From the NCBI GenBank assembly GCA_045649445.1, contig JAZRPX010000190.1, positions 1 to 24,558 on the forward strand: a stretch of DNA of 24,558 nucleotides, read 5' to 3'. The notes below the pieces were generated by a model. It ran no database searches. It saw only the letters and a list, made by a program, of their open reading frames with translations, and was not told where the DNA came from. Position numbers and translations under genes: made by a program. Of the stretch, positions 6,556 through 13,851 are shown piece by piece. The first letter of the stretch is position 1. Every line of letters begins with the position of its first letter. The stretch comes from Acutalibacteraceae bacterium (GTDB lineage: Bacteria; Bacillota; Clostridia; Oscillospirales; Acutalibacteraceae).

Positions 6556-9441
6556 TTATTTTACCTTAACTTTTTGTATTTGACTCCAAGCAGAATAAGC
6601 TTTTTGTTTGCTGTTTACTATCATTGCTCTAGCTTGCACTTGATAATTTCCTTTTTTGAGCTTTTTGATTGTTTTTGTGATACTCTTTTTAGTAGTAACA
6701 TTAACTGTTTTCCATTTTCCTTTAAGTTTGTATCTTATTTGGAATCCTGTTGCACTATCAACTTTTATGTATTTAACTTTAAACTGTTTTTTGCCTTTTG
6801 TGAGTTTGATTTTAGGAACTTTTAAAGTTAATTTAGCAATAATGCTACCGTTTGCGATAGTTTCGTTACAAGTTTCACAAACCGTATCACCAGTGTAACC
6901 ATCTGTAAAGTAGGTAGTTGCTTTTTCGTTTTTAATTACTAATTTATGACCTAATGCATCGATAACTTCTTGTTTAACCAAAACTTCATTGCAAACTGAA
7001 CAATGCTTACCTTCAGTTAAACCAGTTGTAGTGCATGATGGCGCTACTGCTTTGTCTGTAACCTCTGTATGACCAAGTTCTTTAACAACTTCTTGTTTAA
7101 CCAAAACTTCATTGCAAACTGAACAATGTTTACCTTCGGTTAAACCAGTTGTAGTGCATAATGGCGCTACTGCTTTGTCTGTAACCTCTGTATGACCAAG
7201 TTCCTTAACAACTTCTTGTTTAACCAAAACTTCATTGCAAACTGAACAATGCTTGCCTTCAGTTAAACCAGTTGTAGTGCATGATGGCGCTACTGCCTTA
7301 TCTATAACCTCTGTATGACCAAGAGCGGTGTTTTCAATTTTCCTTATATCTGTTTGTGAGCAACGCTCGCATTTTGCTGTTTCTGTTCTGTCTTTTAAAC
7401 ATGTTTCATCATTATTTGAAGTGTAAATTTTAAAATCATGTAAAACACTATACTTGGTTTTGTTTTTTATTAACTCAGTTATTAGTTCTGCATTTTCACA
7501 GTTAACATTTACCGTTACATTATCATCAAAGTTAAATGCATTATATATAATTCTTGTTGAACTTCCGGTAATATTAACGTTTTCTAGTGAATTACAACTC
7601 GCAAAAGCAAGGTCATATATGGTTTGAACTCTTTCCGGTACTGTTATGTTTTTTAACGATTTGCAATACCTAAATGCATAATGCAAGATATAATTTAAAC
7701 TTTCAGGTAAAGTTATTTCTGTTAATGAAGTGCAATTTTCAAATGCACTTTGATATATATCTGTTATACCTTCAGGAATTTTTACATTATCTAATGAGCT
7801 ACACCCACGAAAGGCAAATGAATCTATAAAAGTTACACTATCTGGAATTATAACTGTTTTTAAATTTTTACAATTTTCAAAAGTGCTCATTTCTATTCTC
7901 TTAATGTTATCTGATAATACAACACTTTTCAAGCAATCCCAACCAGAAAAAACAGCGTCGTTGATTTTTTTAATTTGATTTGGAATTATTAAATCAACAG
8001 TTAATTCGTTGTTTATATAAAAATTTTCAGCTTCGCTTAATGGACTTCCGTAACCAGAAAAATTAACATTGCACCATGCATTGAGGTCTGATATATATAC
8101 ATCAGTTAATTCTGGACATTCTTTTAAGGCGTTATTATAAAATTTTTCAACTGATTTAGGAACATGAATTTCTTTTAAAGACTTGCAGTATGCAAACGCT
8201 AATTCGCCAATCTCAATCGTTCCTTCTGGGATTACAATGCTTGTGATTTTATAGCAACCATAAAATCCACCTTCTTCAATAATCTCAAGATTTTTAGGAA
8301 GATTTATTTCAAGTAATGAACAACCATGAAAAGCATCGTTTTCGATTAAAGTTATTCCATCAGGAAGGTTTATTTCTTCTAACGAGTCACAAAGAGAAAA
8401 AGCACAACTTCCTATTGCTTTTACGCTATCAGGGATTTTAATGTCTGTTAATGCTTTGCAACCAGTAAACATTGATGATTCAATTTCTGTTATACCTTCT
8501 GGAATAACAACGTTATTTAACGTTTCACAATGTTCAAAAGCTGCACCATCAATATTTATTACACTTTTAGGTATTTCAATATAAGATAATTTTTTGCATT
8601 TTGAAAATGCACGAATGCCAATACTAATTAAATTTTCGCTAAATGTTATATTTTTCAATTCGTTGCAATTAGCAAATGCATTTATGAAAATGTATTTTAA
8701 ACTTTTAGGCATAACAACACTGGTTAGTTTTTTGCAATCTTGAAATGCTGACTCGGCTATTGTTATTACGCCTTCTTTGATAGTAAATTCGCCTTCGATT
8801 GTTTCTTTTGCTTTAACAAGATAATTGCCAATGTATAAAACATCATTTGCCCAATTGTTTTCATCATTACAATATGAAGTATTGTCAAATGCACCCATTC
8901 CAAAATTTTTAATATTATCAGGCAAGTTAATATTTTTTAAAGAAACACAATTTCTAAAGGCATAATCGCAAAGGGTTTCTAAATTAGAAGGAAATGTAAT
9001 ATCGCATAATTTTTTGCAGTTATCAAATGCATAATAACCAATTGATTTTATGTTTTCAGGCAAAACTATTTTCTCTAATGATGAACACTTTTCAAAAGCA
9101 TAATTATCAATAGTAGTTACTGTATTAGAAATTACTACTTCAGTTAATGAGGTACAGCCAAAAAACGCTTTTTCACTGATATTAGTTACTCCTGATTCAA
9201 TAACAACTTTTTTTATAAGTTCTTGGTCAGAATACCAAGGCCCTTCATATGAAAAGAACATCATCTTACCAGTGCCGCTTATTGTTAATACTCCACTTTC
9301 TTTATCTAATGTCCAAATGATATCACTGTCAAGTGTGCCACACTCTCCCGTTCTTATTTCTGCACTTACGGGAATGCTTACTAAGGTTAGCGTTGATAAA
9401 AACAACACCAAACTTAATAAAATAGATAACACTTTTTTCAT
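6556..9441 (-). CDS. Secreted/surface protein: signal peptide, BspA-type LRRs, Cys/His-rich tandem repeats, basic C-terminal FN3-like domain
   Basis: Signal peptide MKKVLSILLSLVLFLSTLTLVSIPVSA; many 23-aa I.IP.SV..I...AF..C..L repeats; three 41-aa repeats; C-terminal KVPKIKL...ATGFQIRY...YQVQARA; RBS AGGAGG at 9451-9456. Confidence 0.9.
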   Translation of the reverse strand: MKKVLSILLSLVLFLSTLTLVSIPVSAEIRTGECGTLDSDIIWTLDKESGVLTISGTGKMMFFSYEGPWYSDQELIKKVVIESGVTNISEKAFFGCTSLTEVVISNTVTTIDNYAFEKCSSLEKIVLPENIKSIGYYAFDNCKKLCDITFPSNLETLCDYAFRNCVSLKNINLPDNIKNFGMGAFDNTSYCNDENNWANDVLYIGNYLVKAKETIEGEFTIKEGVITIAESAFQDCKKLTSVVMPKSLKYIFINAFANCNELKNITFSENLISIGIRAFSKCKKLSYIEIPKSVINIDGAAFEHCETLNNVVIPEGITEIESSMFTGCKALTDIKIPDSVKAIGSCAFSLCDSLEEINLPDGITLIENDAFHGCSLLEINLPKNLEIIEEGGFYGCYKITSIVIPEGTIEIGELAFAYCKSLKEIHVPKSVEKFYNNALKECPELTDVYISDLNAWCNVNFSGYGSPLSEAENFYINNELTVDLIIPNQIKKINDAVFSGWDCLKSVVLSDNIKRIEMSTFENCKNLKTVIIPDSVTFIDSFAFRGCSSLDNVKIPEGITDIYQSAFENCTSLTEITLPESLNYILHYAFRYCKSLKNITVPERVQTIYDLAFASCNSLENVNITGSSTRIIYNAFNFDDNVTVNVNCENAELITELIKNKTKYSVLHDFKIYTSNNDETCLKDRTETAKCERCSQTDIRKIENTALGHTEVIDKAVAPSCTTTGLTEGKHCSVCNEVLVKQEVVKELGHTEVTDKAVAPLCTTTGLTEGKHCSVCNEVLVKQEVVKELGHTEVTDKAVAPSCTTTGLTEGKHCSVCNEVLVKQEVIDALGHKLVIKNEKATTYFTDGYTGDTVCETCNETIANGSIIAKLTLKVPKIKLTKGKKQFKVKYIKVDSATGFQIRYKLKGKWKTVNVTTKKSITKTIKKLKKGNYQVQARAMIVNSKQKAYSAWSQIQKVKVK
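6955..7323 (-). repeat. Three in-frame 123-bp tandem repeats (41 aa, LGHTEV.DKAVAP.CTTTGLTEGKHCSVCNEVLVKQEV...)
   Basis: Anchor gaccaag/gacctaa recurs at 6948, 7071, 7194 and 7317, exactly 123 bp apart. By eye about 8 differences between the two right-hand copies and about 3 between the two left-hand copies outside the last four codons. Confidence 0.97.
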
Positions 9442-9475: not shown

Positions 9476-9636
9476 CAAAAAAGTGCGCAACCGAAGCCAC
9501 GCACTCAAAAAACACATGGCTCTGATTGTCGCGACACAAACTACACTTCCCAGACAGGTATGTAAAACGAGCCTGTGCTTTTATCAACAGACAAAAGCAC
9601 ACACCTACCTTAAGAAATCATTCAGTTTATGTCGCA
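9476..9636 (-). ncRNA. Structured leader/small RNA, copy 1 (four-helix rod + intrinsic terminator); family unidentified
   Basis: P1 9635-9624/9542-9531; P2 9618-9611/9552-9545; P3 9610-9606/9560-9556; P4 9601-9590/9585-9574; terminator AGUGCGUGGC-UUCG-GUUGCGCACU-UUUUU (9505-9477). Homologous to 13516-13678. Mismatches on + are G-U pairs on -. Confidence 0.72.
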
Positions 9637-9641
9637 AGAGT

Positions 9642-9670
9642 ATTTTACCATATTATTTTTAATTTTTCAA
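9642..9670 (-). promoter_or_regulatory. sigmaA-type promoter of RNA copy 1
   Basis: TTGAAA(9670-9665), 17 nt, TAAAAT(9647-9642) with extended TG; same position and spacing as in copy 2. Confidence 0.72.
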
Positions 9671-9767
9671 GAGGAATTAAGTTGAGATTTTCTTCACTGT
9701 GCTTCTCTGGATAAAATGAAGGGCTTATTAGTAAAAAAGCCGAATGAGCAAAATAAAGTTTTTTCAT
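9645..9767 (-). CDS. Unannotated 40-aa ORF MKKLYFAHSAFLLISPSFYPEKHSEENLNLIPLEKLKIIW
   Basis: AGGAGG (9780-9775) 7 nt before ATG 9767; lies downstream of a near-consensus promoter (9847-9819); stop TAA at 9647-9645. Below the ORF-track length cutoff. Confidence 0.5.
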   Translation of the reverse strand: MKKLYFAHSAFLLISPSFYPEKHSEENLNLIPLEKLKIIW

Positions 9768-9904: not shown

Positions 9905-10108
9905 ATGTTGTATCGAAGAATCCGTGATTTAAGAGAAGATAAGGATTTAACGCAAAAACAAATGGGGGAAATTTTATCTTGTAGTCAAAGAGTTTATAGT
10001 AATTATGAAAGAGGGGAATTAGATATTCCAACTGAAATTTTAATTAAATTAGCTGACTTTCACAATGTTACAACCGATTATATTTTGAATAGAACAAATA
10101 AAAAATAG
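9905..10108 (+). CDS. Small XRE-family helix-turn-helix regulator
   Basis: RIRDLREDKDLTQKQMGEILSCSQRVYSNYERGELDIPTEILIKLADFHNVTTDYIL is a typical HTH_3 pattern; RBS GAGGAG 9891-9896. Confidence 0.93.
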   Translation: MLYRRIRDLREDKDLTQKQMGEILSCSQRVYSNYERGELDIPTEILIKLADFHNVTTDYILNRTNKK

Positions 10109-13188: not shown

Positions 13189-13218
13189 AAACGAGTTCCT
13201 TTTGGAACTCGATTTTTT
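13187..13218. terminator. Bidirectional terminator (GAGTTC/GAACTC family)
   Basis: AAAAA-CGAGTTCC-TTTT-GGAACTCG-ATTTTTT between convergent ymdB and the 92-aa gene. Confidence 0.85.
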
Positions 13219-13495
13219 ATACCACAAAACCATCATTATTCATTGATTCATAAGCCATTCTTGACCCTAAACTATACCCATCTGTAAACACAATCTTTTC
13301 CCAAATAGTTGTCATTTCACTGTGGCTTTCTTTATACTTTTCAAATTGTTCTTTTTGCTTATCTGAAAGCATATTAAGAAATTTTTCTTCGTTTTTATCA
13401 ACAAGTTGCATTGCTTCTTTTAGTTGTTTGTTTTCTGCAATAGAGCGCTCGTTAACCGAAATGTTTCCATAAAATAATTCTTCTAAAACTTTCAT
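13217..13495 (-). CDS. Small hypothetical protein resembling DUF6809 family
   Basis: MKVLEELFYGNI N-terminus and F..GYSLGSRMAYE C-terminus match my recollection of DUF6809; RBS GGAGG 13509-13505. Confidence 0.65.
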   Translation of the reverse strand: MKVLEELFYGNISVNERSIAENKQLKEAMQLVDKNEEKFLNMLSDKQKEQFEKYKESHSEMTTIWEKIVFTDGYSLGSRMAYESMNNDGFVV

Positions 13496-13515: not shown

Positions 13516-13678
13516 AAAAAAGTGCGCAAGCAGAGCTTACGCACAAAAAACGCATTGCTCCAATTGCTGCGACACAAGTTTTCGACCAAACATAAGAGAA
13601 TGTTGAAAAAGAGCATGCGTTTTTATGAAAAACAAAAACACACTCTCCGTTGTTTGATCATATTAACTTATGTCGCAA
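13516..13678 (-). ncRNA. Structured leader/small RNA, copy 2
   Basis: P1 13677-13665/13580-13568; P2 GAUCAAACA/UGUUUGGUC; P3 GGAGAGUG/CAUUCUCU; P4 UGUUUUUG/UAAAAACG; terminator GUGCGUAAGC-UCU-GCUUGCGCAC-UUUUUU (13544-13516). Confidence 0.72.
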
Positions 13679-13682
13679 TAAT

Positions 13683-13711
13683 ATTTTAACATATTACTAT
13701 TATTTTTGCAA
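13683..13711 (-). promoter_or_regulatory. sigmaA-type promoter of RNA copy 2
   Basis: TTGCAA(13711-13706), 17 nt, TAAAAT(13688-13683) with extended TG. Confidence 0.75.
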
Positions 13712-13764: not shown

Positions 13765-13784
13765 GAATGACACGCACCACCCTT

Positions 13785-13851
13785 GTCATCCTGAGCGGAG
13801 CAACGCGTAGTCGAAGGATCTTAAAGATGGTTCGGCTACGCTCACCATGAC
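13785..13851. repeat. Inverted pair of GTCAT-type REP-like elements (REPIN-like unit)
   Basis: GTCATCCTGAGCG...TAGTCGAAGGATCT facing AGATGGTTCGGCTACGCTCACCATGAC; each arm has its own internal stem (ATCCT/AGGAT versus ATGGT/ACCAT). Confidence 0.7.

What the first reader, a model, noticed from the sequence alone, without database searches (positions are those of the whole stretch)
9507..9601. Conserved alternative pairing suggests the RNA is a two-state switch or pseudoknot
Seen: in both copies the 3' strand of P4 plus the adjacent unpaired bulge is complementary to the segment between P1 and the terminator, with the same single-A bulge. Copy 1: AAAAG-CACA-GGCUC with GAGCC-A-UGUG-UUUUU. Copy 2: AAAAA-CGCA-UGCUC with GAGCA-A-UGCG-UUUUU (13625-13611 with 13560-13546). 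Two positions covary (G-C versus U-A; A-U versus G-C). The (G/U)GCUC is unpaired in the rod and could act as a toehold, and full pairing would displace P4. The helix ends next to the terminator and in copy 2 can extend into its first GUG. Inference: a refolding step decides termination versus read-through.
Basis: partly seen in the sequence, partly recalled or inferred. Interest (0 to 1): 0.8.

Follow-up and report, generated by a model that had tools for sequence, protein, structure and literature searches.

The report
Strand-swapping terminator switch leader RNA
The alternative pairing is real and conserved in about 140 related leader RNAs of gut Clostridia, and it looks like one link in a chain of competing helices that decides whether transcription stops before surface-protein and other accessory genes, although the signal that flips it is unknown.

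Summary
On the minus strand, segment X (the 3' strand of P4 plus the GCUC bulge; 9569-9582 and 13611-13624) is complementary to linker L (9508-9522 and 13546-13560).

The two copies belong to a large leader RNA family that is absent from Rfam 15:
- 5 copies in this genome.
- Present in 55 of 151 sampled genomes of the order and 42 of 151 of the class.
- Up to 17 matches per genome, and also on phage-like contigs.

X:L complementarity is present in about 140 of 145 members across three structural subtypes. It is supported by compensatory changes, including at toehold positions that are not part of P4.

L and the CGGAG just before it pair with the terminator's 5' strand and UUCG loop, forming an antiterminator. 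The chain is therefore P4-5': X: L: T5: T3. P4 plus the antiterminator gives read-through. X:L plus the terminator gives a stop.

X:L must form as a pseudoknot on the folded rod, because unzipping the rod costs about 21 kcal/mol.

The effector is unknown. c-di-GMP is rejected, and a small-molecule aptamer looks unlikely.

This scan has flagged and followed up the same family in other genomes. Regulation itself has not been tested by experiment.

The parts
9642..9670 (-). Copy 1 promoter: TTGAAA, 17 nt, TAAAAT, with a TG extended -10. The predicted start is near 9635, at the base of P1.
   Evidence: The -10 box sits at a fixed distance from P1 in all 30 aligned homologues.
9623..9637 (-). Copy 1, P1 5' strand (base of the rod).
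   Evidence: MFE fold, z = -7.4. P1 covaries across 30 sequences, for example GC 15 / CG 10 / AU 5 at one pair.
9590..9601 (-). Copy 1, P4 5' strand. This is the competitor strand that masks the 5' half of X.
9569..9582 (-). Copy 1, segment X: the P4 3' strand (AAAAGCACA) plus the GGCUC toehold in the bulge. It acts as the anti-antiterminator strand.
9529..9543 (-). Copy 1, P1 3' strand.
9508..9522 (-). Copy 1, linker L (GAGCCAUGUGUUUUU). This is the switching strand, which pairs either with X or with the terminator's 5' strand.
9494..9506 (-). Copy 1, 3' arm of the antiterminator. It consists of the 2 nt before the stem, the terminator's 5' strand and part of its UUCG loop.
   Evidence: A 13-bp hairpin of -12.1 kcal/mol forms when T3 is left out.
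9477..9506 (-). Copy 1 intrinsic terminator: stem 9506-9481 as called by the scan, then the U-tract.
   Evidence: -15.0 kcal/mol
6556..9441 (-). Gene controlled by copy 1: a 961-aa secreted BspA-type leucine-rich-repeat protein. Its start codon lies 35 nt after the end of the RNA model, preceded by an AAGGAGG ribosome-binding site.
13683..13711 (-). Copy 2 promoter: TTGCAA, 17 nt, TAAAAT, with TG.
13665..13677 (-). Copy 2, P1 5' strand.
   Evidence: z = -7.3
13632..13643 (-). Copy 2, P4 5' strand (competitor for X).
13611..13624 (-). Copy 2, segment X (AAAAACGCAUGCUC).
13568..13580 (-). Copy 2, P1 3' strand.
13546..13560 (-). Copy 2, linker L (GAGCAAUGCGUUUUU).
13516..13544 (-). Copy 2 terminator (stem 13544-13522) plus U-tract. 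Bases 13532-13542 also form the 3' arm of the antiterminator.
13217..13495 (-). Gene controlled by copy 2: a 92-aa DUF6809 protein. Its start codon lies 20 nt after the end of the RNA model.

Best explanation
Each copy is a self-contained leader: a promoter, a rod-shaped hairpin, a switch region and an intrinsic terminator. It controls transcription into the gene behind it through five strands that pair in a chain.

The five strands are:
- the P4 5' strand,
- X (the P4 3' strand plus the toehold),
- L (the linker),
- T5 (the terminator's 5' strand plus the UUCG loop),
- T3 (the terminator's 3' strand).

There are two states.
- Read-through: X is held in P4 at the tip of the rod. L is free and pairs with T5 as soon as T5 emerges, forming the antiterminator. 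The terminator cannot form.
- Stop: L docks on the exposed toehold of X and displaces the P4 5' strand. This forms the 14-15-bp X:L helix as a long-range pseudoknot on the folded rod. T5 is then free to pair with T3, and RNA polymerase terminates about 25 nt before the start codon.

Shown by computation: the four helices, their mutual exclusivity, covariation for P1, the terminator and X:L, and conservation of the antiterminator.

Inferred: that the choice is regulated, and by what. By energy alone the stop state wins. I therefore expect default termination, with read-through needing either kinetic trapping (fast polymerase, so the antiterminator forms before L finds X) or a factor that masks X or stabilises P4 or the antiterminator.

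My rough split for the effector is: protein or other macromolecule 40%, ligand-free kinetic or pausing control 30%, small molecule or ion 25%, other 5%.
For: Architecture in the window:
- Both copies have a promoter and a terminator.
- Both rods are very stable (z about -7.3).

Family:
- 57 of 301 genomes of the family by BLAST.
- 55 of 151 genomes of the order and 42 of 151 of the class by covariance model.
- 5 copies in the window's own genome.
- 91 of 100 pattern-scan loci confirmed.

X:L helix:
- Found in about 140 of 145 members.
- Recovered as the RNAalifold consensus, with 8 of 11 pairs compensated.
- Shuffle z = 13.3 for all pairs and 9.2 for the toehold pairs alone.
- On a tree built without the X and L columns, parsimony gives about 16 independent double changes at one pair, against 3 changes to a mismatch.
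- Complementarity is kept in a long subtype where X sits in an apical loop and 3' stem with different letters: AAAAACGCAAAUUCC pairs with GGAGUUUGCGUUUUU in a perfect 15 bp. It is also kept in a short subtype.

Antiterminator:
- The same hairpin (CGGAG plus L with T5 and the UUCG loop) appears in every sequence printed (70 of 146 folded).
- Its median energy is -11.6 kcal/mol, against -16.5 for the terminator.
- 92.3% of cells are canonical, against 25-61% for slid partners.

Energetics: freeing X costs 5.75 kcal/mol and X:L gives -16.35, and the net is below zero in 99% of members.

Cis context:
- 137 of 152 members have a ribosome-binding site and ORF on the same strand.
- The median distance to the start codon is 25 nt, which leaves no room for another promoter.
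Against: - No experimental or RNA-end evidence exists. The only RNA run held Logan contigs, and these showed only a 171-nt piece inside the LRR gene.
- The antiterminator is conserved but barely covaries. Observed pairing is 92.3% against a shuffle mean of 91.0%, and RNAalifold keeps only its 5 inner pairs. It could be partly a by-product of sequence conservation.
- X:L needs a pseudoknot that joins the tip of a roughly 30-bp rod to a linker only 6-7 nt from its base. That requires a sharp bend, which I could not model.
- The 21 kcal/mol cost of the nested alternative rules out a simple secondary-structure switch.
- Tandem units that each carry their own promoter exist (L046). About 10% of members lack an obvious downstream ORF. 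Both leave room for a free-standing small RNA role.
- The shuffle controls do not correct for relatedness among sequences.
Confidence: 0.65

Rival explanations
1. It is a metabolite- or ion-sensing OFF riboswitch. The rod plus the X:L pseudoknot form an aptamer. Ligand binding locks L into the pseudoknot, so the terminator forms. Without ligand, L forms the antiterminator.
For: - The layout matches many transcriptional OFF riboswitches, in which the 3' strand of an aptamer helix doubles as the antiterminator strand (my own knowledge of SAM-I and preQ1-I type platforms).
- Copy number is high, with up to 17 matches per genome. That suits a global signal.
- The distance from X to L is tightly constrained at 45 nt, IQR 44-48. 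That suits a defined tertiary fold.
Against: - Almost all positions conserved at 90% or more lie inside the switching helices and P1. The consensus shows no block of conserved unpaired nucleotides that could form a pocket.
- The interior of the rod varies freely in sequence, and its shape differs between subtypes: bulge, three-way junction, or short.
- The downstream genes share no metabolic theme.
- X:L is already about 11 kcal/mol favourable without any ligand.
- c-di-GMP, the obvious candidate for surface-protein genes, is excluded. The window's own genome has no GGDEF domain, and 36 of 54 RNA-positive genomes lack one.
Confidence: 0.17
2. It is mainly a free-standing, abundant small RNA (rod plus terminator). 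X:L is a static structural pseudoknot or a dimerisation contact. Downstream genes get only constitutive leak-through.
For: - Every unit carries its own promoter and a strong terminator.
- Tandem arrays of units with separate promoters exist (L046, three units; also tandem hits).
- 15 of 152 members have no called downstream ORF.
- The 5' end is buried in P1, which would stabilise an RNA.
Against: - 137 of 152 members sit with the same orientation a median of 25 nt before a ribosome-binding site and start codon, with no room for a promoter.
- The conserved CGGAG-L:T5-loop hairpin competes with both X:L and the terminator. A static RNA would have no reason to keep it.
- X and L covary within each copy, and differently between copies of one genome: G-C in copy 1, U-A in copy 2. 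That argues for pairing in cis rather than a shared target in trans.
Confidence: 0.1
3. The X:L complementarity is a by-product. L resembles the P4 5' strand because of an internal duplication, or the whole unit is a palindromic mobile repeat (MITE-like). There is then no selected X:L pairing.
For: - L (AUGUGUUUUU) and the P4 5' strand (GUGUGCUUUU) look alike, so either would match X.
- The unit is multi-copy, precedes unrelated genes, and also occurs on phage-like contigs.
Against: - The toehold pairs lie outside P4 and still covary (z = 9.2).
- The long subtype keeps a perfect 15-bp X:L helix although X sits in a different local hairpin with different letters.
- Copies within one genome are only about 72% identical, yet compensated. 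They keep a fixed orientation and distance to a start codon. Recent transposition would not produce that.
Confidence: 0.05

Closest known systems
PyrR-controlled pyr operon leaders of Bacillus subtilis (anti-antiterminator, antiterminator, terminator)
   Same: Both have stacked, mutually exclusive helices in which an upstream segment sequesters the 5' strand of the antiterminator so that an intrinsic terminator forms. Both are promoter-proximal leaders, and several copies can work under one logic (my own knowledge of the system).
   Different: - Here the anti-antiterminator is a long-range helix between the tip of a roughly 110-nt rod and the linker, not a local hairpin.
- Here there is a fourth tier: P4 masks half of X.
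- No pyr genes lie downstream.
- No cofactor is known, and PyrR-binding features were not tested.
Expression platforms of transcriptional OFF riboswitches whose aptamer is closed by a pseudoknot or P1 (for example preQ1-I, SAM-I)
   Same: A 3' strand is shared between a sensor helix and the antiterminator. The terminator lies directly before the ribosome-binding site.
   Different: - No Rfam family matches.
- Few unpaired nucleotides are conserved.
- The sensor helix is 14-15 bp and stable without any ligand.
- The downstream genes are functionally heterogeneous.
Strand-displacement riboswitch mechanisms (ZTP/pfl, pbuE adenine)
   Same: An exposed toehold sits next to a pre-formed helix that an incoming strand must displace during transcription. 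Titles and abstracts listed (bioRxiv 10.1101/521930; PMC7707468) describe ligand-gated co-transcriptional strand displacement. I did not read these papers in full.
   Different: - Here the invading strand and its target are about 45 nt apart on a closed rod.
- The position of the toehold differs between subtypes: a 3' bulge in one, an apical loop in another.
- No ligand is known.
E. coli trp-type attenuators (segments 1:2 / 2:3 / 3:4)
   Same: A chain of overlapping complementary segments ends in an intrinsic terminator.
   Different: There is no conserved leader peptide. Short ORFs in the 5' half differ between the three copies I examined (read by eye). The chain has five segments, and the first pair is part of a long rod.

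Membership tests
Any family of Rfam 15 | A covariance-model match at the gathering score, or at least a plausible sub-threshold match. | tested here: not met
   The whole window gave no hit at gathering thresholds. Searches of both copies at E <= 10 returned only unrelated chance matches.
Intrinsic-terminator attenuator with anti-antiterminator, antiterminator and terminator | A canonical intrinsic terminator between the promoter and the start codon, with no room for a second promoter. | tested here: met
   The median distance from the U-tract to the start codon is 25 nt in 137 of 152 members.
Intrinsic-terminator attenuator with anti-antiterminator, antiterminator and terminator | An antiterminator helix that shares a strand with the terminator. 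| tested here: met
   The CGGAG-L:T5-loop hairpin appears in every sequence printed, median -11.6 kcal/mol. 92.3% of cells are canonical against 25-61% for slid partners, but there is little covariation.
Intrinsic-terminator attenuator with anti-antiterminator, antiterminator and terminator | An anti-antiterminator helix that shares a strand with the antiterminator. | tested here: met
   X:L uses the same L bases (9508-9522) as the antiterminator (9510-9522). It is conserved and covaries.
Intrinsic-terminator attenuator with anti-antiterminator, antiterminator and terminator | Termination efficiency changes with a signal. | not testable with these tools
   Only contig-level RNA data were available.
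Metabolite-binding riboswitch | An aptamer core with many invariant unpaired nucleotides, and a coherent functional theme among the downstream genes. | tested here: not met
   Conserved positions lie in the helices. The genes are LRR surface proteins (25 of 136), XRE regulators, zinc-ribbon proteins, AMP-binding enzymes, DUF6809, ECF sigma factors and others. Ligand binding itself cannot be tested here.
c-di-GMP riboswitches (classes I and II) | A match to RF01051 or RF01786, and co-occurrence with diguanylate cyclases. | tested here: not met
   The window's genome (83% complete) has no match to either RNA model and no GGDEF domain. The RF01051 search also rang in none of the 14 control genomes, so that result alone is weak. 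36 of 54 RNA-positive genomes of the order sample have no GGDEF domain.
MITE-like or REP-like mobile repeat | Near-identical copies within a genome, placed without regard to gene orientation. | tested here: not met
   Copies within the genome are about 71-72% identical with compensated stems. Orientation and distance to the downstream start codon are fixed.

The most novel reading that the evidence does not exclude
The family is a ligand-free co-transcriptional timer. A toehold-mediated strand exchange across a bent rod races against synthesis of the terminator. Polymerase speed or pausing (NTP supply, NusA/NusG, growth state) would then set the expression of up to a dozen or more surface-protein and accessory genes per genome. 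Alternatively, it is a new sensor class for a still unknown global signal of gut Clostridia.
Probability: 0.3. Interest if true: 0.85.

Novelty: new variant of a known kind. Interest (0 to 1): 0.72.

Why it matters
If the model holds, this is a large, uncatalogued class of cis-regulatory RNA in uncultured gut and rumen Clostridia, and on some of their phage-like contigs.

- It governs BspA-type leucine-rich-repeat surface proteins and many other accessory genes, with up to about 17 units per genome.
- It would be a natural example of a four-tier, toehold-based strand-exchange switch spanning about 45 nt.
- It defines a regulon whose common signal could reveal how these bacteria remodel their surface.
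- The helix covariation gives precise, testable mutations.

Tried and rejected
- Rfam at gathering and permissive thresholds gave nothing relevant.
- Literature searches for DUF6809, for RNA motifs near LRR genes and for Oscillospiraceae ncRNA motifs found no description of this family.
- c-di-GMP as ligand is rejected. GGDEF is, if anything, rarer in RNA-positive genomes (18 of 54) than in RNA-negative ones (65 of 96). This is not corrected for phylogeny.
- Leader-peptide attenuation: I read the short ORFs in the 5' half by eye in three copies. They are not conserved.
- Nested refolding with the rod unzipped is rejected on energy. The median cost is +21 kcal/mol.
- A conserved neighbouring regulator gene: the upstream ORFs of 135 loci share no family.
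- Expression evidence: one metatranscriptome held only contigs, which showed a 171-nt identical piece inside the LRR gene and nothing over the leader. This is uninformative.
- Plasmid collection: no match.
- I did not use the count of structure pairs with a typed structure string. I computed equivalent counts, slide controls and shuffle controls in Python instead.

Full report
**What is in the window**

Both copies lie on the minus strand. Each starts with a sigma-70-type promoter carrying an extended -10 box: TTGAAA-17-TAAAAT at 9670-9642 and TTGCAA-17-TAAAAT at 13711-13683.

Transcription should begin at the base of a long rod-shaped hairpin. P1 is 13-15 bp, and the whole leader has an MFE of -66.5 and -61.3 kcal/mol for the two copies, with z about -7.3 against shuffles.

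After the rod come a short linker, a canonical intrinsic terminator (stems 9506-9481 and 13544-13522, each followed by a U-tract), and then a ribosome-binding site and start codon. Counted from the end of the RNA model, the start codons lie 35 and 20 nt downstream.

Copy 1 precedes a 961-aa secreted BspA-type leucine-rich-repeat protein (6556-9441). Copy 2 precedes a 92-aa DUF6809 protein (13217-13495). Homology between the copies runs from the -35 box to the U-tract at 80% mean column identity. No Rfam 15 family matches, even at E <= 10.

**The observation**

Segment X is the 3' strand of the apical helix P4 plus the adjacent bulge. It reads AAAAGCACAGGCUC at 9582-9569 and AAAAACGCAUGCUC at 13624-13611.

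X is complementary to linker L, which reads GAGCCAUGUGUUUUU at 9522-9508 and GAGCAAUGCGUUUUU at 13560-13546. The helix has 14 bp and one bulged A in both copies. RNAduplex gives -18.7 kcal/mol for both.

**It is a large family**

- BLAST with copy 1 found related sequence in 57 of 301 genomes of the same family.
- A covariance model built on 30 homologues found 5 copies in the window's own genome, which is an 83%-complete MAG.
- The model hit 55 of 151 sampled genomes of the order and 42 of 151 of the class, with up to 17 matches per genome.
- A pattern scan of all species genomes stopped at its 120-locus limit. The 80 record titles printed and all 120 listed are gut or rumen MAGs labelled Oscillospiraceae, Acutalibacteraceae, Ruminococcaceae, Christensenellaceae and the like. 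The model confirmed 91 of 100 loci.
- The family also occurs on phage-like contigs: two faecal phage records and 44 of 60 IMG/VR pattern hits.
- The window's organism is in a bovine gut metagenome.
- This scan's notebook shows that the same family was flagged in at least 16 other genomes and followed up several times with similar readings. I treated those notes as leads only.

**Is X:L more than chance?**

- Without relying on an alignment, I asked RNAduplex for the best partner of L anywhere upstream in each member. In about 140 of 145 members it picked the same site. The median energy was -16.3 kcal/mol and the median z against shuffled L was -3.6.
- On 61 model-aligned sequences, 92.9% of cells were canonical pairs, against 35-66% when partners were slid by 1-3 columns. 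One pair showed CG 24 / UG 20 / UA 17 with no mismatch. Another showed GC 35 / AU 19 / GU 4.
- RNAalifold, given only the X-to-L halves of 92 distinct type-1 members, returned this helix as the consensus. Eight of its 11 pairs carried compensatory changes.
- Shuffling partners among sequences gave 86.4 +/- 0.5% pairing against 92.7% observed (z = 13.3). The six toehold pairs that are not part of P4 gave 83.2% against 90.1% (z = 9.2).
- These shuffles ignore relatedness. I therefore mapped pair states onto a tree built from the rest of the RNA. The pair at columns 10 and 90 of the X-to-L alignment needs about 16 independent double changes, against 3 changes to a mismatch. Four other pairs need 6-11 and a fifth 5. 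The tree comes from short sequences and is noisy.
- The strongest argument is structural. A long subtype (200-220 nt, with a three-way junction) includes the own-genome copy on contig C197. There X reads AAAAACGCAAAUUCC. It sits half in an apical loop and half in a different local stem, yet it pairs perfectly (15 bp) with L = GGAGUUUGCGUUUUU. A short subtype of about 145 nt has yet another matched pair.
- In all subtypes about half of X is masked locally and half is exposed. A median of 8 of its 15 nucleotides are paired in the rod.

**The missing link to the terminator**

I folded each leader from the end of P1 to the terminator loop, that is, before T3 exists. Every sequence printed (70 of the 146 folded) gave the same hairpin. 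CGGAG plus L pairs with the terminator's 5' strand and its UUCG loop, forming 12-14 bp. The median energy is -11.6 kcal/mol, against -16.5 for the terminator.

In copy 1 this hairpin joins 9522-9510 with 9506-9494. In copy 2 it joins 13561-13550 with 13542-13532.

It uses the same L bases as X:L, and the same T5 bases as the terminator. The chain P4-5' : X : L : T5 : T3 is therefore closed.

This antiterminator is well conserved: 92.3% canonical pairs against 25-61% for slid partners. It barely covaries, however. The shuffle mean is 91.0%, and RNAalifold keeps only 5 inner pairs. Its support is conservation and thermodynamics, not covariation.

**Energetics and topology**

- Freeing X from the rod costs a median of 5.75 kcal/mol, and the X:L duplex gives -16.35. 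The net is negative in 99% of members.
- A nested version, in which the rod unzips so that X:L becomes an ordinary hairpin, is about 21 kcal/mol worse than the MFE.
- X:L must therefore form as a pseudoknot on the folded rod, or something must hold the 5' half of the rod.
- The pseudoknot joins the tip of a roughly 30-bp rod to a linker 6-7 nt from its base. That needs a sharp bend at the asymmetric P1/P2 internal loop, or at the three-way junction in the long subtype.
- The X-to-L distance is tightly kept at 45 nt (IQR 44-48) in type 1 and 52 nt (50-55) in type 2. This fits a geometric constraint but does not prove one.

**Context**

- 137 of 152 members have a ribosome-binding site and ORF on the same strand, with a median of 25 nt after the end of the RNA model.
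- Of 136 downstream proteins, 25 are BspA-type LRR proteins. By a simple heuristic, about half have a signal-peptide or transmembrane N-terminus.
- The others include XRE regulators, zinc-ribbon proteins, AMP-binding enzymes, Listeria-Bacteroides repeat and dockerin proteins, SPFH, bPH, DUF6809 and ECF sigma factors.
- Upstream neighbours share no family.

**What senses?**

This is unknown.

- The type-1 consensus shows that positions conserved at 90% or more lie almost entirely in P1, X, L, T5 and T3. That argues against a classical small-molecule pocket.
- c-di-GMP, the obvious candidate for surface-protein genes, is rejected. The window's genome has no GGDEF domain and no c-di-GMP riboswitch model hit. 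In addition, 36 of 54 RNA-positive genomes in the order sample lack GGDEF.
- Because the stop state is favoured by energy, I expect default termination. Read-through would depend on kinetics, or on a factor that masks X or stabilises P4 or the antiterminator.

**Verdict**

The helix is the anti-antiterminator of a five-strand attenuator, and it is a pseudoknot rather than a nested refold.

The mechanism class is known. The RNA family, its long-range toehold design and its regulon appear to be uncatalogued. Nothing has been tested by experiment.

Noticed in passing
window 13784-13825: A GC-rich REP-like element. Many metagenome contigs match just this roughly 40-nt stretch at high summed depth, and they run on into unrelated sequence on both sides. 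This suggests a dispersed repeat shared by many loci or organisms.
   Followed up: no
window 9561-9601 (minus strand); family alignment columns 73-79: The P4 hairpin followed by UGCUC and a U-rich tract is itself called terminator-like by the scan. The U-rich tract after X is conserved across the family, although it is unpaired in the rod. It could be a pause signal or a binding site. It is unexplained.
   Followed up: partly
L065:1501-1717 (own genome, contig C197:2503-2719): A fifth own-genome copy belongs to a longer subtype of about 217 nt. It has an extra small hairpin (a three-way junction), and X is presented in an apical loop. It precedes a 259-aa protein.
   Followed up: partly
L046:912-1563; also the hits at G367:C186:256-832 and G126:C8:61300-61670: There are tandem arrays of two or three units. 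In L046 each unit has its own promoter, and the last unit precedes a secreted protein.
   Followed up: partly
order-level genome sample: Presence of the RNA is negatively associated with GGDEF domains. 18 of 54 RNA-positive genomes have one, against 65 of 96 RNA-negative genomes. This is not corrected for phylogeny.
   Followed up: partly
window 8849-9019: A 171-nt contig from a gut metatranscriptome is identical to part of the LRR gene behind copy 1. This is compatible with read-through expression, but a DNA origin is not excluded.
   Followed up: no
window 9905-10108 and 9645-9767: An XRE-family HTH gene lies divergently upstream of copy 1. XRE genes are also among the genes downstream of other family members.
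   Followed up: no
L215-L274 (IMG/VR contigs); MT837627.1 and MT835845.1: The family occurs on predicted viral or prophage contigs. 44 of 60 pattern hits were confirmed by the covariance model, and two faecal phage records match.
   Followed up: partly
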